From assembly GCA_964511025.1 (NCBI GenBank), contig CAZEDK010000001.1, forward strand, positions 24,191-88,190: 64,000 nucleotides of DNA. Direction: 5' to 3'. Numbering within the stretch: position 1 is the first letter of the stretch; each line of letters begins with the position of its first letter. Of the stretch, positions 1 through 62,126 are shown piece after piece. Under the pieces are notes generated by a model. It was given only the letters and a program-made list of their open reading frames with translations. It was not told the DNA's origin and made no database searches. A program made the position numbers and the translations under genes. Origin of the DNA: an uncultured Candidatus Peribacteria bacterium (GTDB taxonomy: Bacteria > Patescibacteriota > Gracilibacteria > UBA1369 > GWF2-33-10).

Positions 1-1560
1 CTGATTTACAAGCACGTCTTCAAAACGATAAGCTACAACTGATTGACCACCTATCTGAAAATCCCAAACCGACTGGCATGAATCTCCTACACCATCTGTA
101 TTATCATCCTCTTGTAAAGCATTGACATCATCAGGACAATTATCAGTCGAATCAGCAACCATATCGAAATCACTATCAATCAAAGCATCACAAGCATCCG
201 GCACGCTATCAAGATCCACATCTATTGCATCGTCATATCCCTCGCACTGATCTAAAGTATCTATTACGATGTCGCCATCAGTATCTCTTTCGCTCGGACC
301 ACAACCAACTACATTCACTTGAGAAATTTCTGAAGCATCAGTATTCATACATTCGTCAGCACTATCAGCAATGCCATCTTGATCAGTATCAATAATAGGA
401 TCAATACAGTCCGGTATATTATCGTAATCTAAATCTATTGTGTCATTTTGTCCATCACATACATCATAATCGTCAACCACTCCATCATTATCAGAATCAA
501 AATCACATAGATCTCCAACTCCATCTTGATCAGTATCGCTTTGCTCCAAATTATAATCATAAGGACAATTGTCAACACTATCAGTTACAATATCGAAGTC
601 TGAATCTATTTCAGCAGTACCGGTCAAATCCAGAGAAAGCCCATTCCCATCAGAAGAAACAAAATCAAATAAATCCGTAAAAATCTTATAAGTTTCTCCA
701 TCACCCATATTGTCCTCTGTAGCCAAGAAACTAAATGACATATAACAAAGTTCTCCAGGAAAAATGACTTCATCACAATTCAAAGATCCATCAGCATCGA
801 CTCTCCGCGCTATATTAAAAGGACCTGCAATATCACCGACAGCAACATCAAAAAAATCATAATTCACTTGAGGATTGGCTTCTTTATTACCTGTGTTTTT
901 CAAAGCTAAACCAATAGTGGTACCGACGCCCAAAGCTTGAGGCTCATCTTCAGTCAAATTCAAACTTGTCACGACTGTCATTAAATCATTAATATCAACA
1001 AATTCCCATTTTGATCCTAATCCAAGACCTCTAGCATTAATATCTCTAGTAGCACCAAATTCATCAGTCAAACGCAATGTTGCATTAAATTCTCTACCTT
1101 CAAACGGCGCAAAATTAAATCTTAAAACTGCAGTAGAAGCAGCTGCAGCATCTATTGTTGCCAAAGATGCGTTAGATAGTTCGCCATCAAAATCAAGTAA
1201 ATTAACAGTTCCTAGATTATTTAATGTATAAAAATCTTCAAGATCAAAATAAAAAGCATTACTATCCAGACCTATAAATTGCACCGTAAATGTCGCAGAA
1301 AAATCTGAAATAGAATTAATATCTACGGTTGCCGATTTCATTTCGCCAACAGTCACTTCAGCAAAATCTATATTATCTCTAGCTATAAGTTCATCTAGAT
1401 AAATATTAGCAAATTCAAATTCGTGCGAAATTTCATCGTTCGCATAAAGATCAATCCAGCTCTTGAAAGCAATCAACATAAAAAAAGCTACACAAGTCAA
1501 AATAACAGCTTTAAAAGTTAAAGACTTAGACAGTTCGTTTGGAAAATATTTCTCTATCAT
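1..1560 (-). CDS. Secreted or membrane-anchored protein with thrombospondin type-3-like calcium-binding repeats (N-terminal 520 codons; the gene runs off the left edge)
   Basis: Absent from the ORF track because it is edge-truncated. The reverse strand is open from ATG (1560-1558) to base 1. Hand translation starts MIEKYFPNELSKSLTFKAVILTCVAFFMLIAFKSW (hydrophobic anchor). Further in it reads DNCPYDYNLEQSDTDQDGVGDLCDFDSDNDG, i.e. repeated DxDxDGxxDxxDxC units. Confidence 0.75.
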   Translation of the reverse strand, partial: MIEKYFPNELSKSLTFKAVILTCVAFFMLIAFKSWIDLYANDEISHEFEFANIYLDELIARDNIDFAEVTVGEMKSATVDINSISDFSATFTVQFIGLDSNAFYFDLEDFYTLNNLGTVNLLDFDGELSNASLATIDAAAASTAVLRFNFAPFEGREFNATLRLTDEFGATRDINARGLGLGSKWEFVDINDLMTVVTSLNLTEDEPQALGVGTTIGLALKNTGNKEANPQVNYDFFDVAVGDIAGPFNIARRVDADGSLNCDEVIFPGELCYMSFSFLATEDNMGDGETYKIFTDLFDFVSSDGNGLSLDLTGTAEIDSDFDIVTDSVDNCPYDYNLEQSDTDQDGVGDLCDFDSDNDGVVDDYDVCDGQNDTIDLDYDNIPDCIDPIIDTDQDGIADSADECMNTDASEISQVNVVGCGPSERDTDGDIVIDTLDQCEGYDDAIDVDLDSVPDACDALIDSDFDMVADSTDNCPDDVNALQEDDNTDGVGDSCQSVWDFQIGGQSVVAYRFEDVLVNQ

Positions 1561-8453: not shown

Positions 8454-8556
8454 TTAAGCTTTTTTGAAACTTTTCCGAATTTCAAATAGTGTTAAACTAT
8501 GATATAATTAATAGAAGAGTTCTTTTGAGTAACTACTCACCGCTATTTGCATTCTT

Positions 8557-8689
8557 GTTTGTCATTCCAGACCTGATCTGGAATCCAGTAGGGTAAACTT
8601 GTTTGTATTTCAAATCTAAACAATGTTTCAAGGCTATCGCAACATAATGCGCAATTCCTAGATCCCAGACTGGATCTGGGATGACAAAC
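8557..8689. mobile_element. MITE-like element, family 2, copy A (hairpin-terminated, 133 bp)
   Basis: Left end GTTTGTCATTCCAGACCTGATCTGGAATCC. Right end GATCCCAGACTGGATCTGGGATGACAAAC, the inverted counterpart. Each end is itself an 8-bp-stem hairpin. The internal blocks (CAGTAGGG.AAACT, TATTTCAA, AGGCTATCGC) are shared with 12918-13040. Confidence 0.65.
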
Positions 8690-8739
8690 AATAAAGTTAA
8701 TAAGTTACAAAAAGCAGTGAGCAGTTACCATAAAGTAGT

Positions 8740-11800: not shown

Positions 11801-12901
11801 ACAACAGCAGGCTTAGCAATACCAACTGGCTCATCTCCACTTGATAATGTAACATTTGGCAACAACAAAGAAGCTTCAGCACTTGCGATGACATGGTCAA
11901 TGAATTCAGTTTATAATGTGAGCTCATCATATCCAAATGATGGAAAAGTTCATAAATCAATGGATGATTTCACGCGTGCTACAAGCATTCAACTAGCTGA
12001 ATTAAATGGAATATTTGATGACAAACAAGAAGCAACAGCTAGCTTAGAAATTGATGCAGTTAGCCCCCTTGACACCAGCCCGCCCGCCTGTACCGATTCG
12101 GGCAGGACTACATTCTGGCAAGAAGGGGGGCAGGGGGGATTTGATCCACAAACCGTTGTAAATGCCGACAACAGCAGTCCTGATCTAAGTACAGATAATG
12201 GATTACATGCAAATAGTGATACAAAAGCAGATCACAAAGTAAATTCCGCCCAATCAGCCATTTATCTGCCACTAAATAACGAGAAAGGTAGTCCGGAACA
12301 AATTAATGTAGTAGCAAATGCTATAAAAAACCGACCAACTAATGGTGCTGTTGAATTTGCTTTGCAAGACGGTACAGTAGTTTGTTATGCACCTACAGGA
12401 GTATATTCTGTATTTAACAAAGATGGCACACCAAATAACAGTTCACCTTATCTAGCAAGGCTCAACAGCAAAAAACCTGAAAACGCAGCAAGGTCGTTAA
12501 GGTCTAATCGAGACAATCCACTTGCAGGAGTATCATTTGAAGGATCTGCACCAATAGGCTATGCAACAATTGCACAACGTCAATTTATTGACGGCATCAT
12601 AGCTCAAGAAGAACCTGTGATTCATACCTATACAGATACTGACGACGATGCTGAACCGACATCTTCTGAAGAACCTGCAAACAGTCTTCTAGCACAAACT
12701 ACGAACGATCCATTTTTCCAAGAACTGGATAACAAAATAGACAGCTTATTGGCATCGCTAGAAAGCCCCCTTGACAAAGGGGGTCAGGGGGATTTCCCCA
12801 ACAATGGTAGCCTAATTGGCAGTTCGGATGCTTATGTTGTGGCTACAGCGAAAAACGAAGGAGTAAGCGATGTCAATTTTGGAGAGATTTTTGATGCGTG
12901 A
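8810..12901 (+). CDS. Large orphan protein (1363 aa): low-complexity, Pro/Ser/Thr/Ala-rich, one central TM helix, no recognisable domain
   Basis: An uninterrupted 4.1-kb ORF in an AT-rich genome cannot be chance. It has its own strong promoter. The TM segment WGYAIAATVLFGLGALGIHL is encoded at about 11351-11422 and is preceded by RRRGLPK. The second half is visibly richer in G+C than the neighbouring genes. Confidence 0.8.
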   Translation: MGAANTSTPEGKENQSSVAPLKSLDDTTDTEANPTPDNNDEGDCFIDYADESSLEPMPANDTPAAETKVAEEVRTEVAEVATTAIDIPALNPYPEIFTWEEKENAKFADLPNHERLAISKYPYLMDLLRNFAFCTYTYNPIENIDSVSISFGNEEFPPMDTSSSLGMMMANAIIQKIYETIGVGSETVTKRTEDENEKLHLTCNVHTNSQQPNIAKITDPANNKIGFDALLLTVDQFRQNNNQGTTITGISLTYGEGAILEFPMDRPDEPLMLECMLRLFFDKTAIQTLYNEIKDKKPKYEQWQKKRKGTYPQIAIIYHPAELDIDENSFERLSSLLEPQLVQNERWSQVQAITLETNGDDRKSAFDLTNNNELNTAETFLEKNPEAILSDYTINGETIYAGDLLTEDELGETPAAWEGAEKIARGEQVEPLALLAAVSADHSVTANPLNANPESTTGGSKKTIVIRHNPENDADGRRFQWQPADIGKVIRIKKAPTPTLQNQAGIIGDDMSTSSPARFGTEKPLQPKNEVLASLNEAHDTSRAMNEEGKQLGRQAFTALSGTPDSVSGYSTNNDSPLRIAHAPAPWENGKELIYGKVKPPQSILYRTIAPPWEPDTIAVTIQHSSKRQPPKPIILQGAAINPVAYQTLPESSIKKKNTIVDIASSDFLPPPSAFSPPDKQKQANLPSSSGQNGSSVYIVPIAKPAKDSTSNTALQVPTNGGSLPPALKSSTRSQVTSQRAEQNEANQLSSKLAKLLGSQSTPLNPKQSGSKPSASQKKEAPTGTAPSVASTTTPKNAPPTASLPTIKPTDTPAEKQLTFRTDDANSTSTISPVPRSQDTHLAERRRGLPKWGYAIAATVLFGLGALGIHLRSSDIQVASNDAPTPTPIIAKADPVPVVSRDSSSPQSDTRDSASSATAEKTDSSVITAPASTEGAQTVTINTTRRKKADQVYAKMLKAAEESNMKLKPFLEQFLSPKANQALGARGISLSDFNSKMTTAGLAIPTGSSPLDNVTFGNNKEASALAMTWSMNSVYNVSSSYPNDGKVHKSMDDFTRATSIQLAELNGIFDDKQEATASLEIDAVSPLDTSPPACTDSGRTTFWQEGGQGGFDPQTVVNADNSSPDLSTDNGLHANSDTKADHKVNSAQSAIYLPLNNEKGSPEQINVVANAIKNRPTNGAVEFALQDGTVVCYAPTGVYSVFNKDGTPNNSSPYLARLNSKKPENAARSLRSNRDNPLAGVSFEGSAPIGYATIAQRQFIDGIIAQEEPVIHTYTDTDDDAEPTSSEEPANSLLAQTTNDPFFQELDNKIDSLLASLESPLDKGGQGDFPNNGSLIGSSDAYVVATAKNEGVSDVNFGEIFDA

Positions 12902-12917
12902 TTACCTTGTCATTCTA

Positions 12918-13040
12918 GTTTGTCATTCCTGCGCAGGCAGGAATCCAGTAGGGCAAACTATCTGTGTATTTCAAGTTACAAAGGCTATCGCGATGTAATT
13001 AGCAGTTCTGGATCCCAGATCGGAGTCTGGGATGACAAAT
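12918..13040. mobile_element. MITE-like element, family 2, copy B (123 bp), same orientation as copy A
   Basis: Ends are GTTTGTCATTCCTGCGCAGGCAGGAATCC … GATCCCAGATCGGAGTCTGGGATGACAAAT. It is flanked on both sides by ATTACCTTGTCATTC (12901-12915 and 13039-13053), which suggests insertion into a pre-existing solo hairpin unit. Confidence 0.65.
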
Positions 13041-13046
13041 TACCTT

Positions 13047-13071
13047 GTCATTCCTGCGAAGACAGGAATCC
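13047..13071 (+). repeat. Solo hairpin repeat unit (GTCATTCC-loop-GGAATCC), 15 nt from the GIY-YIG stop codon
   Basis: GTCATTCCTGCGAAGACAGGAATCC. It belongs to the same family as the left ends of the family-2 MITEs. Confidence 0.7.
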
Positions 13072-13086
13072 AATAGAGTCAACTGT

Positions 13087-13374
13087 CTAGAAATCTTCAT
13101 ACAAATCCTTCCAGCACGGATTCTCTTTTTCAATCAAATTTAACTTCCAAAGTCTTTTCCATGCTTTCATTTGTTTTTCTCTCTCAATAGCAAAATTGAT
13201 ATTTTCAAATTCTTCGTACCACACTAAATTTTTTACTTTGTATTTCTTTGTAAAGCCATCAATCAAACCTTCTTTGTGTTCATAAATTCTTCTTGATAAA
13301 TCATTTGTTACACCAATATACAAAGTTCCATTCTTTTTACTAGCTAAAATGTAGACATAGTATTTGTTAGACAT
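13087..13374 (-). CDS. Small GIY-YIG nuclease family protein (UPF0213/URI-domain type)
   Basis: 95 aa. YYVYILASKKNGTLYIGVTNDLSRRIYEHK carries the GIY…YIG motifs and the conserved R and E. ATG start at 13374. Confidence 0.9.
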   Translation of the reverse strand: MSNKYYVYILASKKNGTLYIGVTNDLSRRIYEHKEGLIDGFTKKYKVKNLVWYEEFENINFAIEREKQMKAWKRLWKLNLIEKENPCWKDLYEDF

Positions 13375-13613
13375 TTATTTAATTTATAATTCTGGATTCC
13401 AGCCTTTGCTGGAATGACATAGTCACGATCAACACCCCTCTCAGCAAGCGTATCCAGATATAGCTCTATCGCCTCTATTATATTATATTTTGCTTCTTCA
13501 AAAGTATCGCCTTCACTAATACAACCTGGCAAATCCGGCACTTCAGCTGTAAAACCGCCTTCTTCCTGAGCAGTAAAAATCACTTCAAATTGAAACTGTT
13601 TTTTCTTTTTCAT
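13344..13613 (-). CDS. HicB-like (UPF0150) antitoxin-family protein; orphan, with a C-terminal tail encoded by the hairpin repeat
   Basis: FEVIFTAQEEGGFTAEVPDLPGCISEGDTFEEAKYNIIEAIELYL is a typical HicB N-terminal domain. No HicA-like ORF is adjacent. The last about 25 residues (…VIPAKAGIQNYKLNK…) come from the repeat and overlap the GIY-YIG start by 31 nt. Confidence 0.7.
   Translation of the reverse strand: MKKKKQFQFEVIFTAQEEGGFTAEVPDLPGCISEGDTFEEAKYNIIEAIELYLDTLAERGVDRDYVIPAKAGIQNYKLNKCLTNTMSTF
13394..13418 (-). repeat. Solo hairpin repeat unit in inverted orientation, 19 nt upstream of the GIY-YIG start
   Basis: GGATTCCAGCCTTTGCTGGAATGAC is the reverse complement of GTCATTCCAGCAAAGGCTGGAATCC. 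It also encodes the VIPAKAGIQ tail of the HicB-like ORF. Confidence 0.7.
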
Positions 13614-13791
13614 TCAACATGCAATAAATATTTGTACGCTACAAATGTTAGCTTATAAAACAATAACTACCAATTAAAAAATTAATTTATCACTATCCAC
13701 TCTTTTTAAAAAGAGAGGGGACGACCCGCCTGAACGTAGTCGGGCAGGAGGGGTGAGTTGTATTGCTTGCAAATTATTTTTCAGGCATGTC

Positions 13792-16953: not shown

Positions 16954-17157
16954 CTCTCAGTTCTCAACTCTCAGTTCTCAACTCTCAGCTCTCAGCTCTC
17001 AGCTCTCAACTCTCAGTTCTCAGCTCTCAGTTCTCAGCTCTCAGTTCTCAACTCTCAGTTCTCAGCTCTCAGTTCTCAGCTCTCAGCTCTCTCAGTCCCA
17101 AAGGGACCCCCTTGGGGCTCTCAGCTCTCAGCTCTCAGTTCTCAACTCTCAGTTCTC
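16954..17157. repeat. Heptanucleotide tandem array (CTCAGYT/CTCAACT, about 29 units) split by a GC-rich palindrome
   Basis: Read directly: ctcagtt ctcaact ctcagtt ctcaact ctcagct ctcagct … The central sequence CCCAAAGGGACCCCCTTGGGG lies at about 17097-17117. The array produces the spurious SQLSALSSQ ORFs in the track. Confidence 0.9.
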
Positions 17158-18166
17158 TATAAAAACCCTGCGCTATTTTACCTGCATTTTCCAATAACTG
17201 CAAAGCAGATTGAAAAGTTTGCATACCTTCTTTTTGTCCAATTTGCATTAACGAATAAATTTGTTTTGTTTTACCTTCGGCAATGCAGTTTTTGATACCG
17301 CTGCTTGCCATCATCACTTCACACGCAAGTATTCTGCGACTGTTATCTTTCGAAGCTATCAAATTTTGCGAAACAACACCTGCCAAAGTTGAAGACAGTT
17401 GCGTTTTGACCTGAACCTGCTGTGCTTCAGGAAAAACATCAATGATCCTGTCAATAGTTTGAGGTGCATCAATTGTATGCAAAGTTGAGAAAACCAGATG
17501 ACCGGTTTCAGCAAGAGTCAAAGCCGCTGAAATTGTTTCATAGTCACGCATTTCACCAATCATGACAACATCAGGATCCTCCCTGAGAGAAGATCTTATA
17601 GCATCCAAAAATGAAGAAGTATGATGACCTACCTCTCTTTGTGTAATCATAGCTTTTTTGCTTGTATGAAGAAATTCAATTGGGTCTTCGACAGTTACTA
17701 TGTGACAGGCTCTGTTTTGATTAATTAGATCAATAAGAGAAGCCAAAGTAGTACTTTTACCATTACCTGTAGGACCTGTAACCAGAACTAAACCTTTATT
17801 TAGAGTTGCAAAAGTTTTAACTGAATCCGGTAAATTCAAAGTGTTAATGTCTGGTACAACAGTTGGTATCACTCGAAAAGCCATGCAGTATCCTAAATAA
17901 TCATTATAAATATTGACTCGAAACCTTCCAAGTCCAGGAAGCTCGTAAGCTATATCAAGATCATGTTTAATAGAAAAACTATCTTTTTTATCACCCAAAA
18001 TTTCATCAATAAAAGCTTTGACATCTTCCGATTTAAGAGCGTCAATATTTGATGGGCGATATAAACTGCCATTACTAAGTCTTATTGTTGGCACGTGAGC
18101 AGCTTTAAAATGCACATCAGAAGCTTTGTGCTCTACAACTTGTTTGAGAATTTCTTTAAAATCCAT
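17135..18166 (-). CDS. pilT: Type IV pilus retraction ATPase PilT
   Basis: 343 aa. Walker A GPTGNGKSTT, MIGEMRD, and FSTLHT (His box). The size and the absence of an N-terminal GspE domain fit PilT. Confidence 0.9.
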   Translation of the reverse strand: MDFKEILKQVVEHKASDVHFKAAHVPTIRLSNGSLYRPSNIDALKSEDVKAFIDEILGDKKDSFSIKHDLDIAYELPGLGRFRVNIYNDYLGYCMAFRVIPTVVPDINTLNLPDSVKTFATLNKGLVLVTGPTGNGKSTTLASLIDLINQNRACHIVTVEDPIEFLHTSKKAMITQREVGHHTSSFLDAIRSSLREDPDVVMIGEMRDYETISAALTLAETGHLVFSTLHTIDAPQTIDRIIDVFPEAQQVQVKTQLSSTLAGVVSQNLIASKDNSRRILACEVMMASSGIKNCIAEGKTKQIYSLMQIGQKEGMQTFQSALQLLENAGKIAQGFYRELRVEN

Positions 18167-33575: not shown

Positions 33576-33583
33576 TGCAGTTG

Positions 33584-33624
33584 TTAGTTATTAGTCTTTA
33601 GTTATTAGTCTTTAGTCTTTAGTT
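33584..33624. repeat. Heptanucleotide tandem array (TTAGTTA/TTAGTCT, about 6 units) abutting a start codon
   Basis: ttagtta ttagtct ttagtta ttagtct ttagtct ttagtt, immediately followed by the ATG at 33625. Confidence 0.85.
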
Positions 33625-34044
33625 ATGGAAAGAATAAATACAGTTGGAGGAATTTTATACAGAATTGAGAATGATAAAATTTTATATTTATTACTTCAAT
33701 ATCCTGATAAAGCATGGGGATTTCCAAAAGGGATTCAAGATGAAGGCGAAACTCTTGAACAAACCGCAAAACGAGAAATCTGGGAAGAAACAGGAATAAA
33801 AAATATCGAATTAAACGTAAATCATAAATTTGAATTCGATTATTTTTGCACTTACAACGACATTAAATATCATAAATTCGCTACTCTTTTTTTGGCAAAA
33901 TCTGACACAAAAGAAATCATAATTTCAGATGAGCACTTAGATTCCGAGTGGCAGACTTTTGAAAAAGCTTTGAAGAAATTAACTTATGAAAATAATAAAG
34001 AGATTTTGAGAAAAGCTAATTCTATTTTGTTAAAAATTCGTTAA
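33625..34044 (+). CDS. NUDIX hydrolase
   Basis: NUDIX box GFPKGIQDEGETLEQTAKREIWEETGI. Confidence 0.85.
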   Translation: MERINTVGGILYRIENDKILYLLLQYPDKAWGFPKGIQDEGETLEQTAKREIWEETGIKNIELNVNHKFEFDYFCTYNDIKYHKFATLFLAKSDTKEIIISDEHLDSEWQTFEKALKKLTYENNKEILRKANSILLKIR

Positions 34045-34127: not shown

Positions 34128-34478
34128 ATGGGCGAAATAGAATTTCAAAAAATCGTCATTGAAACCTTATACAGAATTGAAAAAGATGTTTCCGGACTGA
34201 AACAAGATGTTTCCGGACTGAAACAAGATGTTTCCGGACTGAAACAAGATGTCTCTGTGCTACAAGAAGATGTATGTAGTTTGAAATCAGGATTTAGCAG
34301 ACTTGAAACAAAAGTAGATAAACTAGATTACGAAATGAAAGATGAAATGAATAAAATGAGAAACAGTATCGATAAAATGCGTGATGAAATGCATGAAAAT
34401 TTCGAATACGTAGAAACACTCATAAATCAAGCTTTTGATAGAATTTCTATATCATTAAGCCATGAACAACGAATCTAA
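34128..34478 (+). CDS. Small coiled-coil protein with a tandem heptad repeat (DVSGLKQ)x3
   Basis: 116-aa ORF with an ATG start. Three perfect 21-bp units at 34185-34247, followed by two degenerate units. Confidence 0.55.
   Translation: MGEIEFQKIVIETLYRIEKDVSGLKQDVSGLKQDVSGLKQDVSVLQEDVCSLKSGFSRLETKVDKLDYEMKDEMNKMRNSIDKMRDEMHENFEYVETLINQAFDRISISLSHEQRI
34185..34247 (+). repeat. Perfect 21-bp tandem repeat x3 inside the coding sequence (GATGTTTCCGGACTGAAACAA)
   Basis: Read directly. Diverged fourth and fifth units follow, to about 34289. Confidence 0.9.
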
Positions 34479-34490
34479 ATTAATTTATTT

Positions 34491-37340
34491 ATGATCCACA
34501 CCCTTTCCACCTTCCCAAAAGATCCAAACATTGATTATAAAGGAATCGGTTTACTTAATGACGCTCAAGAATTTCTCAAAATCAAAACTATTTCAGAAAT
34601 AAGAGCTGTTAAGAAGTTTTATCTCGAAGGTGTGAATGATGAAGAACTTTTGAAATTAAAAGATAAATTACTGGTTGAAGAAGTTTGGCAAGATTTCACG
34701 GTTGATAAAGATTTTTATAACAATCATCCAAATAAAATTGAAGTAGCTTTCAGAAAAGGCATGATGAACCCTGAGGTTCGAAGTCTTCTTGAAACCGCAC
34801 ATGAATTAGGTGTAACAAATTTACAAGCTGCAGATACATGCTGGGTCTACTATTTCTTTGGAAAAAATATAGATCAGAAAGAAATAGATAGCGTGATCAA
34901 TAAACTTGTAATGAATTCAACTACTGAAGAGATCAGAAAAGAGAATCCAGTAACACTTATAATTGAAGGATCAGAACACGAAATTGAAATTGTAAAAGTA
35001 AGAGAAATGAGTGATGAAGAACTTATGAAACTTTCAAAAAACACATTGTTTTTGACGCTCGATGAAATGCATACGATACAGAATTTCTTCAAGAATTTAG
35101 GTCGAGATCCATATGACTGTGAACTTGAAGTTTTGGCACAAAGCTGGTCAGAACACTGCGGACATAAGACTTTCAAAGCCAAACTTACAATCGACGGAAA
35201 AGAAGTTGAACCTCTATATCGAAGGCTCAAAAATGCGACGAAAGAAATCAATCACCCAAATGTAGTTTCAGCTTTCGTGGATAATTCCGGAGTGTGGAAA
35301 TTTGATGATAATTATGGAATATGTGGGAAAGTTGAGACTCACAATTCTCCTTCTGCTCTAGATCCATTTGGTGGAGCTGCAACAGGTAGCGGTGGAGTTT
35401 TCAGAGACATTGTTGGAACTGGTAAAGGAGCGAAAACAATTGCTTCAACTGATATATTTTGTGTAGGACAACCTGATATGGATGAATCTAAAATTCCAGA
35501 AGGATGCAAACATCCAAGATTTATTTTAAAAGGTTTGGTACGAGGTGTTTCCTCTTATGGGAATCCAATGGGTATTCCTACAACCAATGGCTCAGTACAT
35601 TTCCACGAAGATTTCAGATGCAAACCTACTGTAATTGTTGGAGCTTATGGATTAATAAAATTAGATAGAGCACAAAAAGGAGAAGCACAGGCTGGAAATT
35701 TGATCATGACTCTTGGTGGGAAAACAGGTCGTGATGGAATTCATGGCGCTACTTTTTCAAGCGCTGAAATGACAGGTGAAACATCTACAGTCAATTCTAC
35801 AGCAGTTCAAATTGGAGATCCGATTCAAGAAAAAAAAGTTTTTGATGCGATTTTGGATTTATCTGATCAGAATTTGATTAACGCAATTACAGATTGCGGG
35901 GCTGGAGGATTCTCATCAGCAATTGGTGAAATGGGAGCTATCACTGGAGTTGATGTTGAAATTTCAAAAGCTCCTCTCAAGTATAATGGACTTGCTCCAT
36001 GGGAAATCTGGCTTTCTGAGAGTCAAGAAAGAATGATCATTGCTGTTGATGGAAATAATTTAGATAAAATTCAAAAAGTTCTAGACAAACACTCCGTTGA
36101 AGGAGTTGTTTTGGGTAAATGTACCGAAGATGCTCAGTTAAAAATTACTTATAAAGGCAAAACTCTCGTTGATCTTCCAATGGAATTTGTTCATGAAGGA
36201 CTTAGTCAATTGAATCTTGAAGCGCATTTTGAAAAATCGAATTTTCCAGATCCGAGCGAAAATGAACTTATAAAAGAAAACTATACAGAAAGTTTACACA
36301 AAGTTTTGTCTCACCCGAATGTGTGCAGCAAAGAACCAATAATTGTAAGATATGATCACAATGTTCAGGGTACGGAAGTTCAGATGCCAATTTGTGGAAA
36401 CAAACATATTGGAGTCAATAATTCCAGCGTCCTTGAGCCTATTTTGGGTCATGGCAAGGGAATGATTATTTCTCATGGTTTAAATCCAATTTTAAATCGT
36501 ATTGATCCATATTTAGGTTCAAAATGGGCAATTTTTGAAGCTGTTTCCAACGCAATTTGCCAAGGAGCAAATCCCGAAAACACAGCTCTTATCGATAATT
36601 TCATTTGGCCAAAACCTGATAGTAAATTCATCGCTGACTTAAGTTTATCGATTGATGCCTGCTGTGATGTTTCAAAAATTTTCAAAATGCCATTTATATC
36701 TGGCAAAGACAGTCTGAGCTCGACATACAGAAAAGGTGATTTGACCGTTCATATTCCACCTGTGCTTTGTATTTCAACATTTGGGGTGGTGGATGATATT
36801 ACTAAAACAATTTCATCTCCATTCAAGAAAGCAGGGAATAAAATTTTATTAATTGGCGAGACAAAAGCTGAAATGGGAGGATCAATTTATTATGATATTA
36901 ATGGATACATTGGATCAAAAGTCCCAGATATCAATACTCAAATAGCATTAAAAACGTACAAAGCAATTTACAAAGCAATTCAGGAAGGTTTGATTAAATC
37001 TTGCCAAGATGTGAGTGAAGGAGGATTAGCGACAGCTGTGACTGAAATGTGTTTTGGATTTGATCTATGTGCTGAAATTGAATTAAATAAACTCTCAGTT
37101 CTCAGTTCTCAGTTCTCAGTTCTATTCTCAGAGAGTCCCGCCAGATTCATTTGCGAGGTAGAGACAAAAGATCTTTTGTCTCTAAAAGAAATTTTTGGAG
37201 ACATAGCTGTGAATATTATTGGTGAAATAAATAATTCAGATGAAATCGTTTTCAAAAGTAATGATGAAATTTTAATTCAAGATAAACGAGCAAATTTCAA
37301 AAAATCATGGCAACAACCAATGAGGAAGGTGTTTGGATAA
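34491..37340 (+). CDS. purL: Phosphoribosylformylglycinamidine synthase subunit PurL, with an N-terminal extension resembling PurS
   Basis: 949 aa. WSEHCGHKTF, ETHNSPSALDPFGGAATG and GKDSLS are PurL signatures. The extra about 200 N-terminal residues are discussed in the findings. Confidence 0.93.
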   Translation: MIHTLSTFPKDPNIDYKGIGLLNDAQEFLKIKTISEIRAVKKFYLEGVNDEELLKLKDKLLVEEVWQDFTVDKDFYNNHPNKIEVAFRKGMMNPEVRSLLETAHELGVTNLQAADTCWVYYFFGKNIDQKEIDSVINKLVMNSTTEEIRKENPVTLIIEGSEHEIEIVKVREMSDEELMKLSKNTLFLTLDEMHTIQNFFKNLGRDPYDCELEVLAQSWSEHCGHKTFKAKLTIDGKEVEPLYRRLKNATKEINHPNVVSAFVDNSGVWKFDDNYGICGKVETHNSPSALDPFGGAATGSGGVFRDIVGTGKGAKTIASTDIFCVGQPDMDESKIPEGCKHPRFILKGLVRGVSSYGNPMGIPTTNGSVHFHEDFRCKPTVIVGAYGLIKLDRAQKGEAQAGNLIMTLGGKTGRDGIHGATFSSAEMTGETSTVNSTAVQIGDPIQEKKVFDAILDLSDQNLINAITDCGAGGFSSAIGEMGAITGVDVEISKAPLKYNGLAPWEIWLSESQERMIIAVDGNNLDKIQKVLDKHSVEGVVLGKCTEDAQLKITYKGKTLVDLPMEFVHEGLSQLNLEAHFEKSNFPDPSENELIKENYTESLHKVLSHPNVCSKEPIIVRYDHNVQGTEVQMPICGNKHIGVNNSSVLEPILGHGKGMIISHGLNPILNRIDPYLGSKWAIFEAVSNAICQGANPENTALIDNFIWPKPDSKFIADLSLSIDACCDVSKIFKMPFISGKDSLSSTYRKGDLTVHIPPVLCISTFGVVDDITKTISSPFKKAGNKILLIGETKAEMGGSIYYDINGYIGSKVPDINTQIALKTYKAIYKAIQEGLIKSCQDVSEGGLATAVTEMCFGFDLCAEIELNKLSVLSSQFSVLFSESPARFICEVETKDLLSLKEIFGDIAVNIIGEINNSDEIVFKSNDEILIQDKRANFKKSWQQPMRKVFG
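37092..37133 (+). repeat. Heptanucleotide array (CTCAGTT x4-5) inserted in frame near the purL 3' end
   Basis: ctctcagttctcagttctcagttctcagttctattctcag encodes LSVLSSQFSVLFS. It belongs to the same unit family as 16954-17157 and 61651-61702. Confidence 0.85.
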
Positions 37341-37643: not shown

Positions 37644-38042
37644 ATGGAATATTTACTTGATACTAATATTTGTGTTTACTTAATAAATAAAAAAAACTAT
37701 AAACTTATTGATAAATTTGAAAGCGTAGATACAGAAAATATAAATATTTCAGCTATTACAGTGAGTGAATTAGAATATGGAATAGCAAAAAGTGAGTATC
37801 CAAATAAAAATCGTTTGGCATTAAATACATTTTTAACTCCACTAAATATTCTACCTTACGCTAATCATGTAGCTATATTGTACGGTGAAATAAGAGCATA
37901 TTTAGAAAAAAGAGGACAAGTAATAGGACCTTTGGATATGCTAATAGGGGCTCATTGCCTTTCGCTAAATCTTACTCTTGTCACAAACAACGAAAAAGAA
38001 TTTAACCGTATACCGAATTTGAGGGTTGAGAATTGGATTTGA
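37644..38042 (+). CDS. vapC: VapC PIN-domain ribonuclease toxin
   Basis: MEYLLDTNICVYL (first acidic PIN residue), SAITVSELEYG, and LTLVTNNEKEF near the C-terminus. Confidence 0.9.
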   Translation: MEYLLDTNICVYLINKKNYKLIDKFESVDTENINISAITVSELEYGIAKSEYPNKNRLALNTFLTPLNILPYANHVAILYGEIRAYLEKRGQVIGPLDMLIGAHCLSLNLTLVTNNEKEFNRIPNLRVENWI

Positions 38043-38048
38043 AATAAA

Positions 38049-38431: not shown

Positions 38432-38686
38432 TGTTAATTTTAACTGAGTTTTTTCAAAAATATGAGTTAAATAAAGTTTCTAAATATTTTGACATAAAAG
38501 ATATTCAAATTCAAAGAAAATTATTTCATCCCAATCATTATTAGGCTGAAAAAAGATAAACTTATCGGTGAGAATTTATCTTTGAATAACAAATTGGCAG
38601 AAGCAAAAATCATATATAATCTCGAAATGATATTTGAAGATTTAAAAAATGATAAATATAGAAAACTACCTTTATAAAATTCCGTT
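38431..38686 (+). pseudogene. Possible degraded toxin partner (short ORF interrupted by a stop or frameshift)
   Basis: The ATG overlaps the antitoxin stop. It reads MLILTEFFQKYELNKVSKYFDIKDIQIQRKLFHPNHY-stop. A second frame then continues LKKDKLIGENLSLNNKLAEAKIIYNLEMIFEDLKNDKYRKLPL. No family was recognised. Confidence 0.25.
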
Positions 38687-38687
38687 A

Positions 38688-38847
38688 GGGTCTTGGCAAA
38701 AAATAAGATACCTAAATTGTGCTAGATTTTGTTTTAGATTCTTTTGTTCAAATACAGGAGTTTATCGAGATAAATGACTGAATTTGCAACAAAGAAGATA
38801 ACGCTAAAGATAGTGCAAGGTAGGTGTTTTATTTTTTGCCAAGACCC
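38688..38847. mobile_element. MITE-like element, family 1, copy 2 (inverted relative to copy 1)
   Basis: Flanked by TTA (38685-38687) and TTA (38848-38850). 156 of 160 positions are identical to the reverse complement of 8294-8453. Confidence 0.78.
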
Positions 38848-38852
38848 TTAGA

Positions 38853-38925
38853 CCTGACTCTTGTCACAAACAACGAAAAAGAATTTAACCGTATACCGAA
38901 TTTGAAAGTTGAGAATTGGGTTTAA
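38853..38925 (+). pseudogene. 3' fragment of a second vapC gene
   Basis: CCTGACTCTTGTCACAAACAACGAAAAAGAATTTAACCGTATACCGAATTTGAAAGTTGAGAATTGGGTTTAA is about 90% identical to vapC 37971-38042 and includes the stop. Only the last about 24 codons are present. Confidence 0.7.
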
Positions 38926-39596
38926 ATCTCTTTTGCTATTTTATGTAAACTTGCAATTATGTCAGCCTCAGTGGCATCTGCAGGAAGTATTTTATATCCA
39001 GAATTTTCTTTCGCGTATTGTTCATCTTTAACAGCTAACTGACTATCATCTCCAAAATTTTTTGCTTCATATAGATTACCATCCGTATCAAGTATACAAG
39101 AAAAACAATCTCCTGCATCTCCCCTATTCAAATCTGTACATTCTTCAGACAAATTAAATGGAAAACATTGAATAGCAAAAATCGTTGCTGTAGTTCCTAC
39201 ATTTGCCTGTCTTTCTGTTAGACCATCGTGCCTTGTCAGTTTATAGTCTTTATCATCAATTTTTATCAGTTTAAAAGGTTCTCCACATCTTACAACGCAT
39301 TCTAATCCTGTCAATTTTGCTACTAATTCTTTATCTATTTGAAATAGAGGCTCAAACTGTTTCACAAGACGTCTGTCTTTTAACCTTGCAGCAATATCTT
39401 CTCTTCCATTTCTACTAAACAATTCAGCGTAACCTTCCCTTAATTCTTTCGTTATAGGAGCTTGACGATTTTTTAACTCACAATATTTAGCTTCAAGCCA
39501 AGCTCTTGCTTTTCTAGCATCGCCATGAGCCTCTTTATCTAAAAATTCTTGAAAAGCTTCTGGAGATTGAAATTGTTGTAAAGACTGTTTAACCAT
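38922..39596 (-). CDS. Orphan Cys-containing 224-aa protein (function unknown)
   Basis: ATG start and a clean ORF on the strand opposite to the pur operon. Cys pairs at CVVRC and DCFSC. No recognisable motif. Confidence 0.6.
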   Translation of the reverse strand: MVKQSLQQFQSPEAFQEFLDKEAHGDARKARAWLEAKYCELKNRQAPITKELREGYAELFSRNGREDIAARLKDRRLVKQFEPLFQIDKELVAKLTGLECVVRCGEPFKLIKIDDKDYKLTRHDGLTERQANVGTTATIFAIQCFPFNLSEECTDLNRGDAGDCFSCILDTDGNLYEAKNFGDDSQLAVKDEQYAKENSGYKILPADATEADIIASLHKIAKEI

Positions 39597-60939: not shown

Positions 60940-61002
60940 AAAATACAGGGATTAGGGATAAAAATACAGGGATTAGGGATAAAAATACAGGGATTAGGGA
61001 TA
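60940..61002. repeat. 21-bp tandem repeat x3 (AAAATACAGGGATTAGGGATA) between the two tRNA genes
   Basis: Read directly; the period is 21 (TACAGGG at 60944, 60965 and 60986). Each unit contains the heptamers AGGGATT and AGGGATA. Confidence 0.9.
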
Positions 61003-61077
61003 AGTATAAAGTATTAAGGGAAATGTGGAAGAAAAGCCCTTTATACATTATACCAATCCCTATATACTTAAAAAAAT

Positions 61078-61178: not shown

Positions 61179-62126
61179 CTAGAATCTATTTATAACACTC
61201 CCTCCACCTATAGCAATAGCATGAGACGCATTTTTTGGCACATATACTTCAATTTCATGTTCTTTTAAAAGTTTCCTGATTGCATCCAAAATCTCTTCCA
61301 TCAAAATCAATTTTCCGACCAATATCACTTCTTTTACCATATAAGCTTTTGTGGCAAATATGATATTGGTTGCTATAGCCTGAGCAACTAAATTAACTAT
61401 ACCTACAGCTAAATCAGCCTTACTAAAATCAATATTTCTAACTAATTTCCCCAAATTTGAAGCTGTATTATCTTGCGACACAATACCTATTGAAGATCCA
61501 ACTATCTCACCAACACTTAAATCTACTTTTTTAATATCCCCCTTTTTAAACATTTCCTTCAGCTTCAAAATATCTGTTTCACCAAGTATTTCTTTGCACA
61601 AACCCAAAAAAGTTCCACCACCAATCCCCGTGCCACCAATATGCTGGACAGAGAGCTGAGAGCTGAGAGCTGAGAACTGAGAACTGAGAACTGAGAACTG
61701 AGTTCGCGGAGTATTTACTTCCACCTCAGCTCTCAGCTCCCCGCCAGAATGATGTCGGGCTGGTCGACTCTCAGTTCTAACTAAAACCATACATGTCCCC
61801 GTCCCCATACTAACCGTCAAGAACTTATCTTCTCTCAAATCATTTTTTGCTAAATAATAAGCTCCTCTGCCGATAGCATCTATTTCTGGAATTTTAGTTA
61901 TATCTATATTAGATATGCTATTTTCAAAAAATTGTGTTTTACCACCTGTAATAAATATTTTATCTATATTTTTCAAAGAAATTTTGCTTTTTGTAAAAAA
62001 ATCTCTTACCGAATTAACAGATTTAAACTGAAGCGCTTCAAAACTCTTTATTTCATTTATTAAAGAATTTTTCCATACAACCATATCAACAGTAGACGCC
62101 CCAAAATCAAAAGAATAATACTTCAT
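61179..62126 (-). CDS. coaW: Type II pantothenate kinase-like ASKHA ATPase (CoaW/fumble family) carrying an in-frame repeat insertion
   Basis: DFGASTVD (phosphate-1), ITGGK, VSMGTGTC and GGTGIGGGTFLGL, plus a C-terminal AIAIGGG. The order matches staphylococcal-type PanK. About 40 extra residues lie between GTGT and GGTGIGGG. Confidence 0.78.
   Translation of the reverse strand: MKYYSFDFGASTVDMVVWKNSLINEIKSFEALQFKSVNSVRDFFTKSKISLKNIDKIFITGGKTQFFENSISNIDITKIPEIDAIGRGAYYLAKNDLREDKFLTVSMGTGTCMVLVRTESRPARHHSGGELRAEVEVNTPRTQFSVLSSQFSALSSQLSVQHIGGTGIGGGTFLGLCKEILGETDILKLKEMFKKGDIKKVDLSVGEIVGSSIGIVSQDNTASNLGKLVRNIDFSKADLAVGIVNLVAQAIATNIIFATKAYMVKEVILVGKLILMEEILDAIRKLLKEHEIEVYVPKNASHAIAIGGGSVINRF
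61645..61781. repeat. Composite repeat insertion inside coaW (heptamer array, inverted arm, GC-rich 24-nt core)
   Basis: AGCTGAG/AACTGAG x7 at 61651-61702. Inverted arm CTCAGCTCTCAGCTC at 61725-61739. Core CCCGCCAG-N7-TCGGGCTGG at 61740-61763. CTCTCAGTTCT at 61768-61778. Confidence 0.85.

What the first reader, a model, noticed from the sequence alone, without database searches (positions are those of the whole stretch)
61645..61781. About 40-codon composite repeat inserted in frame into the catalytic core of a type II pantothenate kinase-like gene
In staphylococcal-type PanK, about 12 residues separate GTGTS from GGIGTGGG. Here 51 residues do: MVLVRTESRPARHHSGGELRAEVEVNTPRTQFSVLSSQFSALSSQLSVQHI.

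The extra DNA consists of:
- Seven heptamer units.
- A 15-nt inverted arm able to pair with the heptamer units.
- The 24-nt GC-rich core also found at 12083 and 13725.

The ORF remains open. This resembles the in-frame palindromic elements described in Rickettsia, but it is built from heptamer arrays. Either the enzyme tolerates a large surface loop at this point, or the gene is being inactivated or phase-varied.
Basis: partly seen in the sequence, partly recalled or inferred. Interest (0 to 1): 0.7.

Follow-up and report, generated by a model that had tools for sequence, protein, structure and literature searches.

The report
Repeat-built loop in pantothenate kinase
An otherwise intact pantothenate kinase gene of an uncultured Peregrinibacteria bacterium carries an in-frame stretch of about 40 codons of repetitive DNA (7-base tandem repeats plus a small GC-rich palindrome) at the tip of a surface hairpin; it is most likely a tolerated by-product of this lineage's unusual tendency to grow 7-base repeats, not a new function.

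Summary
Window 61179-62126 (-) encodes a 315-aa type II pantothenate kinase. It has 50 residues between GTGT and the invariant His162. In 107 orthologues this stretch is 10-29 residues, with modes at 11 and 16.

The extra DNA (about 61644-61778) consists of:
- (GAGAGCT)3(GAGAACT)4,
- a 22-nt spacer,
- an inverted (CTCAGCT)2 arm,
- a 24-nt GC core,
- 1.5 further inverted units.

The gene looks functional. The ORF is open and 66 of 70 highly conserved columns are kept. The AlphaFold core is confident and matches S. aureus PanK-II (TM 0.83-0.87). The insert is a low-confidence excursion from a beta-hairpin tip.

1. The insert is not one event. The nearest relative (52% identity) already has the same GC core at the same loop tip, read in a different frame and without these heptamers.
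2. Other Peregrinibacteria PanK genes carry unrelated 7-nt arrays in the same loop. Period-7 tracts are about 20-fold over-represented in this lineage.
3. The GAGAACT/GAGAGCT unit recurs at two more loci in the window and in many phyla. It is one base from the published TAACTGA repeats.

Verdict: a tolerated in-frame repeat accretion, RPE-like in outcome and SSR-like in origin. Phase variation remains possible but untested.

The parts
61179..62126 (-). Type II pantothenate kinase gene (315 aa), intact ORF containing the insert
   Evidence: ORF. Pfam Fumble PF03630 at 67.1 bits against a cut-off of 28.5. NCBIfam PRK13317 at 161 bits in two stretches. Model pLDDT 90.3. Foldseek best hits are S. 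aureus PanK-II with TMt 0.83-0.87. 66 of 70 conserved columns are kept.
61644..61778 (-). Whole in-frame repeat composite: codons 119-161 (RTES...LSVQ), between Val118 and His162
   Evidence: Alignments A1 and A2 give a loop of 50 aa against 10-29 aa in 107 orthologues. pLDDT is about 50 for residues 121-157. RNA fold is -63 kcal/mol, z -5.1.
61651..61702 (+). Heptamer array (GAGAGCT)3(GAGAACT)4+; on the coding strand it reads TQFSVLSSQFSALSSQLS in the stop-free orientation
   Evidence: TRF: 7.4 copies, 97% matches. Perfect period-7 tracts at 61651-61675 and 61670-61702. Frame analysis.
61703..61724 (.). Spacer TTCGCGGAGTATTTACTTCCAC, the loop of the long hairpin (peptide VEVNTPR); possibly partly native loop sequence
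   Evidence: Sequence. Fold. Its origin is not resolved.
61725..61739 (+). Inverted arm CTCAGCTCTCAGCTC (2.1 units), which pairs with the array
   Evidence: TRF. Pairing in the MFE structures.
61740..61763 (+). GC-rich imperfect-palindrome core CCCGCCAGAATGATGTCGGGCTGG (peptide RPARHHSGG on the coding strand)
   Evidence: The same arms lie at the orthologous loop tip in relative L125/L001 (CCAGCCCGA-AGT-TCTGGCGGG), read in another frame as ASPKFWR.
61768..61778 (+). Terminal 1.5 heptamer units CTCTCAGTTCT (codons RTES), in the same orientation as the 15-nt arm, so the core is embedded in a short array
   Evidence: Sequence.
16954..17157 (+). Second locus of the same heptamer family: about 26 units (CTCTCAG/TTCTCAG/CTCTCAA) split by the GC hairpin GTCCCAAAGGGACCCCCTTGGGGC. 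It supplies the last 8 codons and the TGA stop of the pilT-like gene (17135-18166 -)
37093..37131 (+). Third locus: (TCTCAGT)x5.9 in frame in purL (34491-37340 +), peptide LSVLSSQFSVL. It abuts the conserved LFSES motif, whose codons already contain TTCTCAG
   Evidence: The alignment to T. thermophilus PurL shows about 5 extra residues there.
12083..12106 (+). Second copy of the GC core. It lies inside about 49 nt that interrupt the loop of another hairpin element (AGCCCCCTTGAC|AAGGGGGGCAGGGGGGATTT), in frame in a 1363-aa ORF; an uninterrupted copy of that host element is at 12762-12795
13725..13748 (+). Third copy of the GC core, intergenic

Best explanation
The gene is a working type II pantothenate kinase. 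One surface beta hairpin, between the PHOSPHATE-2 motif GTGT and the His162-GGTGxGGG motif, has accumulated non-functional repetitive DNA in at least two steps.

Step 1 (inferred from comparison). A 21-24-nt GC-rich imperfect palindrome became lodged at the hairpin tip. This palindrome is a small dispersed module that also occurs in other places in this genome and in some phage contigs. It was either already in this loop in the common ancestor with the RIFOXYB2_FULL_32_7 lineage, or it inserted there twice.

Step 2 (inferred). In this genome, heptanucleotide simple-sequence arrays of the genome's own GAGAACT/GAGAGCT family grew around and next to the core, in both orientations. The likely routes are 7-nt replication slippage, template switching or gene conversion from other arrays. 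The result is an imperfect palindrome of about 135 nt.

Why it survives. Selection on the enzyme keeps only configurations that are in frame and stop-free. The long array lies in the orientation that has no stop in any frame (SVLSSQF). The short forward-orientation pieces happen to be read in frames without TGA.

What it makes. The product is a low-complexity, probably disordered excursion of about 40 aa, far from the ATP/pantothenate cleft. The most likely effect on the cell is neutral or slightly deleterious. A side effect is that gaining or losing 1-2 units would switch the gene off.
For: Shown:
- Open ORF.
- All 22 invariant columns and 66 of 70 columns with at least 85% conservation are retained; the orthologue median is 68 and the range 55-70.
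- AlphaFold2 mean pLDDT is 90.3, and only residues about 121-157 are low.
- Fold match to S. aureus PanK-II with TMt 0.83-0.87.
- Synteny with the divergent H+-PPase gene is conserved. In relatives, PanK is followed by panB-panC-coaBC.
- The loop is naturally length-variable, 10-29 aa.
- The same GC core lies in the same loop of the 52%-identical relative. 19 of 19 arm bases are identical, while neighbouring third-codon positions are scrambled and the reading frame differs.
- Unrelated heptamer arrays occupy the same loop in L127 (GGCATGA/GGCAGAA), L205 (GTCAAAA) and L207.
- Perfect period-7 tracts: 7 against 0.25 expected in the window, 9 against 0.4 in 71 kb of Peregrinibacteria relatives, and 3 against 0.6 in 537 kb of distant PanK loci. 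Periods 8-12 show no excess.
- The same unit family occurs at two other loci in the window.
- The forward orientation has TGA in all frames and the reverse orientation is open.
- The core behaves as a separable module: it is nested in another element at 12083.

From the literature:
- Heptamers are the most over-represented long SSR class in bacteria, and slippage is the proposed cause (Mrazek 2007, as cited in PMC4679880 and PMC4692102).
- Large inserts are tolerated in apicomplexan and other eukaryotic type II PanKs (PMC8366970).
Against: - No enzymatic, transcript or read-level data exist, so function is inferred from conservation only.
- NCBIfam equivalog scores are below cut-off (161 against 234). 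The clade as a whole is divergent, and the insert splits the match.
- The residue aligned with the substrate-positioning Arg of S. aureus PanK is His162 and directly abuts the insert. The return strand (LSVQ-H) is itself repeat-encoded, so some perturbation of the active site cannot be excluded.
- The exact identity of the core arms between two distant species could mean a nucleotide-level function rather than junk.
- The slippage or template-switch origin is not demonstrated. A general link between these arrays and neighbouring hairpins was tested in 127 arrays from other phyla and not found.
- The rest of the genome could not be inspected for a second PanK.
Confidence: 0.66

Rival explanations
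1. Contingency (phase-variable) locus. The 7-nt array inside the ORF is kept because gain or loss of units switches PanK, and hence CoA synthesis from salvaged pantothenate, ON and OFF in a subpopulation.
For: - The unit length is not a multiple of 3.
- The array has 7.4 units at 97% identity, with perfect tracts of 25 and 33 nt.
- Changes of +-7 or +-14 nt give stops at residues 177-191, and +-21 nt keeps the frame.
- Heptanucleotide SSR phase variation is documented in Haemophilus (PMC8262952).
Against: - The target is a housekeeping enzyme, not a surface or restriction-modification gene.
- The same arrays occur in purL and after pilT, with no common theme.
- Other Peregrinibacteria have short, decayed arrays in the same loop, which looks like drift rather than a maintained switch.
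- The array is a mix of two unit variants, which lowers slippage.
Confidence: 0.12
2. The GC core, with or without its repeat flanks, is a functional nucleic-acid element placed inside the gene. Candidates are a protein-binding site, an RNA structure controlling translation or decay, or a recognition hairpin for a mobilising enzyme. On this reading the peptide it encodes is incidental.
For: - The core arms are identical (19 of 19 bases) in two species whose PanK proteins are 52% identical. The reading frames and peptides differ (RPARHHSGG against ASPKFWR), while flanking synonymous sites have diverged.
- The window has 3 copies against 0 expected.
- Near-identical cores occur in phage contigs L276/L311. 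One is 23 of 24 identical to window 13725. They sit next to heptamer arrays and just upstream of start codons.
- L215 and L241 also show the core next to period-7 arrays.
- The mRNA hairpin is strong.
Against: - The core alone folds weakly, at -7 to -10 kcal/mol, with two symmetric mismatches.
- No Rfam family matches.
- The copies lie in unrelated contexts: two ORFs and one intergenic region.
- The association with heptamer arrays in viral loci is modest: about 5-6 independent cases against about 1.7 expected. Most viral matches are probably chance hits in GC-rich DNA (median GC 64%).
- No candidate partner protein was identified.
Confidence: 0.13
3. The gene is a young pseudogene, or is on its way to inactivation. 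The insert has crippled the enzyme, and the open frame is a coincidence of recent origin.
For: - The insert abuts His162 and replaces the native return strand of the hairpin.
- L127 shows that repeat arrays can overwrite a conserved motif of this gene (AIGRGG replaced by AIGVEYG).
- panB, panC and coaBC are not next to the gene here, unlike in relatives.
Against: - There are no frameshifts or stops across 948 nt in a 33% GC genome.
- Conservation at invariant positions is as good as in orthologues.
- The model is confident.
- The array is in the only orientation without stops.
Confidence: 0.07
4. Assembly artefact. Reads from the other heptamer arrays of the genome were mis-joined into the PanK contig.
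For: The source is a metagenome-assembled genome. The same repeat occurs at three or more loci in 64 kb. The exact protein exists once in the database.
Against: - Both flanks continue the same gene in the same frame.
- The array (52 nt) is shorter than a read.
- The GC-core part is independently confirmed at the same site in a relative that was assembled four times from different samples.
Confidence: 0.02

Closest known systems
Rickettsia palindromic elements (RPEs; Ogata et al. 2000, as summarised in PMC10969869)
   Same: Both are hairpin-forming repeats of about 100-150 nt inserted in frame into unrelated housekeeping genes of a small AT-rich genome. Both add a peptide at positions compatible with the fold.
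   Different: RPEs are discrete families that move as whole units and encode a conserved peptide. Here only the modules recur (heptamer arrays and the 24-nt core), the composite is unique in the window, and most of it is simple-sequence DNA. The organism is a CPR bacterium, not Rickettsia. Sequence similarity to RPEs was not tested.
TAACTGA heptamer direct repeats of Beggiatoaceae, Cyanobacteria and Bacteroidetes (MacGregor 2015, PMC4679880), and long heptameric SSRs in general (Mrazek 2007; GGGAATC/GGGGATT repeats, PMC4692102)
   Same: - Both are tandem 7-nt units.
- The unit GAACTGA/GAGCTGA differs by one or two bases from TAACTGA.
- The forward orientation gives stops in all three frames, and the reverse gives an S/L/V/Q-rich peptide (SVLSSQF against LSVISYQ).
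- Occasional in-ORF copies lie at protein peripheries.
- Arrays supply stop codons of upstream genes (pilT here).
- Inverted pairs occur.
- One Planctomycete array (L006) mixes both units.
   Different: MacGregor found no GAACTGA direct repeats in Beggiatoa. Here the array is internal to an enzyme domain and is combined with a GC palindrome. The distribution found here (more than 120 loci, mostly Acidobacteriota, plus Verrucomicrobia, Planctomycetes, cyanobacteria and others) appeared in none of the papers searched here.
REP/BIME-type repetitive palindromes and MITEs
   Same: The GC core is a short, GC-rich, imperfect palindrome that is dispersed, sometimes tandem (L224, L276), and can nest inside other hairpin elements. 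The composite has inverted heptamer termini.
   Different: Two of the three window copies are inside ORFs. There is no 5' GTAG. No RAYT or transposase was seen in the window. No target-site duplication is present.
Lineage-specific inserts in type II PanKs (eukaryotic Ins1/Ins2, PfPanK2/TgPanK inserts; PMC8366970)
   Same: These are large loop insertions in the Fumble/PanK-II fold that are compatible with activity.
   Different: Those inserts are not simple-sequence or palindromic DNA, and they lie in other loops.

Membership tests
Type II pantothenate kinase (Fumble, PF03630; ASKHA fold) | Significant match to the family profile above the curated cut-off | tested here: met
   Pfam PF03630 at 67.1 bits against 28.5. 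Only the C-terminal half is matched, because the insert splits the protein.
Type II pantothenate kinase (Fumble, PF03630; ASKHA fold) | NCBIfam equivalog cut-off (PRK13317 / TIGR00555) | tested here: not met
   161.1 bits against 234, and 86.4 against 247.6. The match is in two stretches, and the CPR/archaeal clade is divergent from the staphylococcal and eukaryotic seeds.
Type II pantothenate kinase (Fumble, PF03630; ASKHA fold) | ASKHA motifs PHOSPHATE 1 (DxGxST), PHOSPHATE 2 (GTGT) and ADENOSINE (GGTGxGGG), and the catalytic Glu | tested here: met
   D7-G9-S11-T12, E81, G108-T111 and G164-G171 are all in invariant or nearly invariant columns of 108 sequences.
Type II pantothenate kinase (Fumble, PF03630; ASKHA fold) | Substrate-positioning Arg (the 'Arg' of PMC8366970 S7 Fig; Arg113 in S. 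aureus from memory) | tested here: not met
   The aligned residue is His162, invariant in all 108 members of this clade. This is a clade feature, not a defect of this gene.
Type II pantothenate kinase (Fumble, PF03630; ASKHA fold) | Fold equal to solved PanK-II structures | tested here: met
   Foldseek top 21 hits are all S. aureus PanK-II, E about 1e-19, TMt 0.83-0.87.
Type II pantothenate kinase (Fumble, PF03630; ASKHA fold) | CoA-pathway genomic context | tested here: inconclusive
   Relatives have PanK-Yip1-panB-panC-coaBC. In the window only the divergent H+-PPase neighbour is conserved, with tRNA genes and metG downstream.
Rickettsia palindromic elements | In-frame insertion of a palindromic repeat into unrelated protein-coding genes | tested here: met
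   PanK, purL and the 1363-aa ORF.
Rickettsia palindromic elements | The whole element recurs as a unit (a family with a conserved peptide) | tested here: not met
   Only the heptamer arrays and the 24-nt core recur, and no second copy of the composite is in the window.
Rickettsia palindromic elements | Sequence similarity to RPE-1..10 consensus; Rickettsia host | not tested
   No RPE sequences were on hand. The organism is Peregrinibacteria by its protein neighbours.
MITE | Terminal inverted repeats | tested here: met
   On the coding strand, AGAACTGAGAG at the 5' end against CTCTCAGCTCT near the 3' end.
MITE | Target-site duplication and multiple full-length copies | tested here: not met
   The flanks GTTTTAGTT| and |CATATTGG share no direct repeat, and this is the only full copy.
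Long heptanucleotide SSR (TAACTGA-like) | Three or more tandem 7-nt units, in excess over chance | tested here: met
   7.4 units. 29 pattern matches against 0 expected. Period-7 tracts 7 against 0.25 expected.
Long heptanucleotide SSR (TAACTGA-like) | Unit related to TAACTGA, with the same coding properties | tested here: met
   GAACTGA/GAGCTGA gives ELRTEN* forward and SVLSSQF reverse (table in PMC4679880). Mixed arrays occur in L006.
Long heptanucleotide SSR (TAACTGA-like) | Predominantly intergenic, just upstream of start codons | tested here: not met
   This copy is internal to an ORF. The 17-kb array is intergenic. A different heptamer array (33579-33626) does end at a start codon.
REP / RAYT system | Short GC-rich imperfect palindrome, dispersed | tested here: met
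REP / RAYT system | Extragenic location, conserved GTAG, cognate RAYT gene | tested here: not met
   Two of three copies lie in ORFs. There is no conserved GTAG. No Y1 transposase was found among window ORFs of at least 130 aa. The rest of the genome was not seen.
Phase-variable contingency locus | Intragenic SSR whose unit is not a multiple of 3 | tested here: met
Phase-variable contingency locus | Length polymorphism in the population | not testable with these tools
   No reads are available, and the exact protein exists once in the database.

The most novel reading that the evidence does not exclude
A conserved GC-rich imperfect palindrome (CCCGCCWG-N3-8-TCGGGCWGG) and heptanucleotide tandem arrays form a previously undescribed composite repeat system. 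It would be shared by Peregrinibacteria (CPR) and some phages. The core would be maintained at nucleotide level, even inside an essential gene and independently of reading frame. It would either nucleate or recruit 7-nt arrays on its flanks, implying a dedicated binding protein or polymerase-stalling mechanism rather than random slippage.
Probability: 0.15. Interest if true: 0.7.

Novelty: new variant of a known kind. Interest (0 to 1): 0.45.

Why it matters
- It shows that in a CPR lineage, 7-nt simple-sequence arrays and small GC palindromes invade essential enzyme genes and survive as in-frame surface loops, repeatedly at the same permissive hairpin of PanK. This extends the 'selfish DNA in coding regions' picture from Rickettsia to candidate-phyla bacteria, and from transposed units to slippage-grown arrays.
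- It flags a family-wide excess of heptamer repeats in Peregrinibacteria.
- It flags a wide, undescribed distribution of GAGAACT/GAGAGCT arrays, especially in Acidobacteriota.
- It gives a concrete case, identical core arms read in two frames, where nucleotide-level constraint inside a coding loop can be tested.
- Practically, such inserts split profile matches (the NCBIfam match here comes in two stretches and falls below its cut-off) and can mislead annotation of MAGs.

Tried and rejected
- 'Empty-site' allele: a close relative lacking the insert was sought. The best database relative is only 52% identical. The exact protein is a singleton and is not in the contig index.
- Rfam, at gathering threshold on the whole window and at permissive threshold on 61500-61900: only tRNAs and meaningless miRNA-hairpin hits.
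- Hypothesis that CTGAGAR arrays generally sit beside stable hairpins: the MFE of 50-nt flanks of 127 arrays was compared with 381 control windows. There was no enrichment, and the flanks were if anything less structured. Rejected as a general rule.
- Base-pair covariation reading of the A/T swap in the core: in the best hairpin register the two W positions do not pair with each other. They pair only in a weak 4-bp alternative. With two independent states this is uninformative.
- The viral-contig scan for the core returned mostly single hits in GC-rich contigs (median GC 64%), i.e. largely chance. Only the lower-GC contigs (L215, L241, L276/L311) were informative.
- Other PanK types or CoA genes in the window: none among ORFs of at least 130 aa. 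This says nothing about the rest of the genome.
- Literature for residue-level roles in S. aureus PanK: nothing retrievable beyond PMC8366970.
Full report
**What is there**

The minus-strand ORF 61179-62126 encodes 315 aa. It matches Pfam Fumble (67.1 bits, cut-off 28.5). It matches the NCBIfam type II pantothenate kinase model PRK13317 at 161 bits in two stretches, below the equivalog cut-off of 234. It also matches S. aureus PanK-II chains in the PDB, again in two pieces that end at residue 113 and resume at 159.

S. aureus has 12 residues between GTGTS and GGIGTGGG.

The exact protein is in the public collection once, from an NCBI assembly on a 95-kb contig. Its relatives are Candidatus Peregrinibacteria, and the nearest (P0002, RIFOXYB2_FULL_32_7) is 52% identical.

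**Anatomy of the extra DNA on the + strand**

| Coordinates | Element |
|---|---|
| 61651-61702 | (GAGAGCT)3(GAGAACT)4+, 7.4 units at 97% |
| 61703-61724 | spacer |
| 61725-61739 | CTCAGCTCTCAGCTC, the inverted arm |
| 61740-61763 | CCCGCCAGAATGATGTCGGGCTGG, the GC core |
| 61764-61767 | TCGA |
| 61768-61778 | CTCTCAGTTCT |

- The core is thus embedded in a short array of one orientation, and the long array lies in the opposite orientation.
- The coding-strand RNA folds into one long hairpin (-63 kcal/mol, z = -5.1).
- No direct repeat flanks the composite.
- The long array is read in the orientation that has no stop in any frame (SSQFSVL/SSQLSAL). The opposite orientation has TGA in all three frames every 21 nt.

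**Is it more than orthologues have?**

In an alignment of 108 sequences, the stretch from GTGT to the invariant His is 10-29 residues in 107 orthologues (modes 11 and 16) and 50 here. The insert is therefore an outlier, but in a loop that is naturally variable.

**Is the gene alive?**

- All 22 invariant columns are kept, and so are 66 of 70 columns with at least 85% conservation. The orthologue median is 68 and the minimum 55. The four deviations are G>A, G>A, A>T and A>G.
- AlphaFold2 with this alignment gives mean pLDDT 90.3 and pTM 0.86. Only residues about 121-157 are near 50. They emerge between strands 111-118 and 158-165.
- Foldseek's best 21 PDB hits are S. aureus PanK-II, with TM normalised by target of 0.83-0.87.
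- The divergent H+-PPase neighbour is conserved in relatives. There, PanK is followed by Yip1, panB, panC and coaBC, so the family is a genuine CoA-pathway kinase.
- In the window, tRNA-Leu, tRNA-Cys and metG lie downstream instead.
- No type I or III PanK occurs among window ORFs of at least 130 aa.
- Large inserts are known to be tolerated in other type II PanKs (PMC8366970).
- A caveat: the residue aligned with the substrate-positioning Arg is His162. It is invariant in this clade, directly follows the insert, and the return strand LSVQ is itself repeat-encoded.

**The insert is not one event**

The nearest relative's PanK (L001/L125, a 33% GC genome) has GCCAGCCCGAAGTTCTGGCGGG at the same hairpin tip.

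- Aligned with the window, the arms CCAGCCCGA...TTCTGGCGGG are identical (19 of 19). Third-codon positions in the flanking conserved codons differ.
- The peptides differ because the frames differ: ASPKFWR against RPARHHSGG.
- Removing those 21 nt would give the relative a loop of 15 aa, close to the modal 16.
- The relative has no GAGAACT units. Its core is flanked only by AT-rich period-7 mini-tracts (AAATGAA x2.7, AAAAATT x2.3), which may be native lysine-rich strands.

So the core is either ancestral and constrained at nucleotide level, or it re-inserted at the same site. The heptamer arrays came later and only in this genome.

**The modules elsewhere in the window**

- The heptamer family occurs at 16954-17157. 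There, about 26 units are split by a different GC hairpin, and they provide the last eight codons and the TGA stop of a pilT-like gene.
- It also occurs at 37093-37131, in frame in purL. It adds about 5 residues next to the conserved LFSES motif, whose codons already contain TTCTCAG. This is a possible seed or microhomology.
- The GC core occurs at 13725 (intergenic) and at 12083. At 12083 it lies in about 49 nt that interrupt the loop of another hairpin element, AGCCCCCTTGAC|AAGGGGGG.CAGGGGGATTT. An intact copy of that element is 700 nt downstream in the same 1363-aa ORF.
- The core is therefore a separable module that can sit inside other structures.

**A lineage property**

Other Peregrinibacteria PanK genes carry period-7 arrays of unrelated sequence in the same loop:
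- L127: (GGCATGA)2(GGCAGAA)2.
- L205/P0008: about six GTCAAAA units, giving KSKIKSQKSGQNSK.
- L207/P0047: a decayed AGWAGNN array.

L127 also has inverted arrays, (GAATACG)4-spacer-(CGAAATT/CGGTATT)4.7, that overwrite the conserved AIGRGG motif.

Perfect period-7 tracts of at least 2.4 units:

| Sequence set | Observed | Expected |
|---|---|---|
| Window | 7 | 0.25 |
| 71 kb of Peregrinibacteria loci | 9 | 0.4 |
| 537 kb of distant PanK-II loci | 3 | 0.6 |

No excess appears at periods 8-12. The excess is thus specific to heptamers and strongest in this lineage.

**The unit elsewhere**

Most are Acidobacteriota. Others are Verrucomicrobia, Planctomycetes, cyanobacteria, Bacteroidota, Vibrio, Pseudoalteromonas, Omnitrophica and Chloroflexi.

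- Most arrays are intergenic or at gene ends.
- About 10% have an inverted partner within 300 nt. L071 forms a terminator-like hairpin right after a stop codon.
- In L006, TCAGTTC, TCAGTTA and TCAGTTT units are mixed in one array. This links the family to the TAACTGA repeats described in Beggiatoaceae, cyanobacteria and Bacteroidetes. For those repeats the same stop and peptide properties, and occasional peripheral in-ORF copies, were noted (PMC4679880).
- Heptamers are reported as the most over-represented long SSRs in bacteria, and polymerase slippage is the proposed cause (cited in PMC4679880 and PMC4692102).
- Seven viral contigs also carry the array.

**Core plus heptamers in phages**

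A viral-contig scan for the core gave mostly chance hits in GC-rich DNA. The lower-GC contigs were more telling.

- L276/L311 (43% GC) have three cores. One is 23 of 24 identical to window 13725. Each lies beside ATTCGTA/TACGAAT heptamer arrays and just upstream of a start codon.
- L215 and L241 show the core beside period-7 arrays too, and the L241 unit is GTGAACT.
- Overall there are 5-6 independent adjacencies against about 1.7 expected. This is suggestive, not conclusive.
- A general link between CTGAGAR arrays and neighbouring hairpins in other phyla was tested and not found.

**Mechanism**

Shown:
- The gene is intact and conserved.
- The insert is a disordered-looking excursion at a variable hairpin tip.
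- The modules are dispersed repeats.
- The core predates the arrays.
- The lineage is prone to heptamer tracts.

Inferred:
- The arrays grew by 7-nt slippage, template switching or conversion from sister arrays.
- Purifying selection filtered for in-frame, stop-free configurations.
- The peptide has no function.

A consequence is that changes of one or two units truncate the protein at residues 177-191, while three units keep the frame. Stochastic OFF variants are expected, but whether this is exploited is unknown.

**Comparison and novelty**

In outcome this is like Rickettsia palindromic elements (PMC10969869). In substance it is a heptanucleotide SSR accretion around a REP-like palindrome. 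It fails the tests for a unit-copy RPE or MITE: there is no second full copy and no target-site duplication. It also fails the tests for a REP/RAYT system: copies lie in ORFs, there is no GTAG, and no RAYT was seen.

I rate it a new variant of a known kind, of moderate interest. The more novel reading, a conserved core-plus-heptamer system shared with phages, is not excluded, but it rests on few independent cases.

Noticed in passing
window 16954-17157: A long array of about 26 units of the same heptamer (CTCTCAG/TTCTCAG/CTCTCAA, 14-nt super-period at 93%). It is interrupted by the GC hairpin GTCCCAAAGGGACCCCCTTGGGGC. It encodes the last 8 codons and the TGA stop of the pilT-like ATPase, and it creates spurious ORFs of 72-123 aa.
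   Followed up: partly
window 37093-37131: Heptamer array in frame in purL (LSVLSSQFSVL). It sits directly upstream of the conserved LFSES motif, whose own codons contain TTCTCAG, which suggests seeding from native sequence or microhomology-guided conversion.
   Followed up: partly
window 12055-12140 and 12762-12795: An 'SPLDKGGQGDF'-type GC hairpin element occurs twice in one 1363-aa ORF. The first copy has its loop interrupted by about 49 nt carrying the GC core. This is a nested insertion, still in frame.
   Followed up: partly
window 33579-33626: A second heptamer family (TTAGTCT/TTAGTTA, 6.6 units) ends exactly at the ATG of a NUDIX gene. This resembles the start-codon-proximal TAACTGA repeats of Beggiatoaceae.
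   Followed up: no
window 60940-61003: A perfect 21-nt x3 tandem repeat, AAAATACAGGGATTAGGGATA (three 7-nt sub-units, with GGGAT motifs), lies between tRNA-Cys and tRNA-Leu.
   Followed up: no
window 8544-8702, 12920-13088, 13344-13613: Copies of a hairpin element, TTGTCATTCC(T/A)G...CAGGAATCCAG. One contributes the C-terminal 'VIPAKAGIQ...' tail of a small HicB-like ORF.
   Followed up: no
window 8288-8465 and 38676-38853: A 178-nt sequence is present twice in inverted orientation (94%). It is itself internally palindromic (38687-38848). 78-nt direct repeats lie nearby, around a PIN-domain gene (37966-38043 / 38849-38926).
   Followed up: no
window 34178-34273: A 21-nt tandem repeat (TGAAACAAGATGTTTCCGGAC, 3.6 copies at 98%) lies about 220 nt upstream of purL.
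   Followed up: no
window 5439-6884: A dnaA gene is present, so the window lies near the replication origin.
   Followed up: no
L127 5259-5341 (metagenome contig Ga0156435_101): Another Peregrinibacteria PanK has inverted heptamer arrays, (GAATACG)4-spacer-(CGAAATT/CGGTATT)4.7, in frame. They replace the nearly invariant AIGRGG segment, so that gene may be impaired.
   Followed up: partly
L276 701-758 and 3378-3464 (IMGVR_UViG_3300025326_000485; L311 is a near-duplicate): A phage structural-gene region has three copies of the same GC core, two of them in tandem. They sit next to ATTCGTA/TACGAAT heptamer arrays, immediately upstream of start codons.
   Followed up: partly
L005-L124 (GTDB genomes): (CTGAGAR)n arrays are widespread, mostly in Acidobacteriota but across at least 10 phyla. 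Some form inverted pairs that flank 70-130-nt centres (L005, L019, L093) or terminator-like hairpins (L071).
   Followed up: partly
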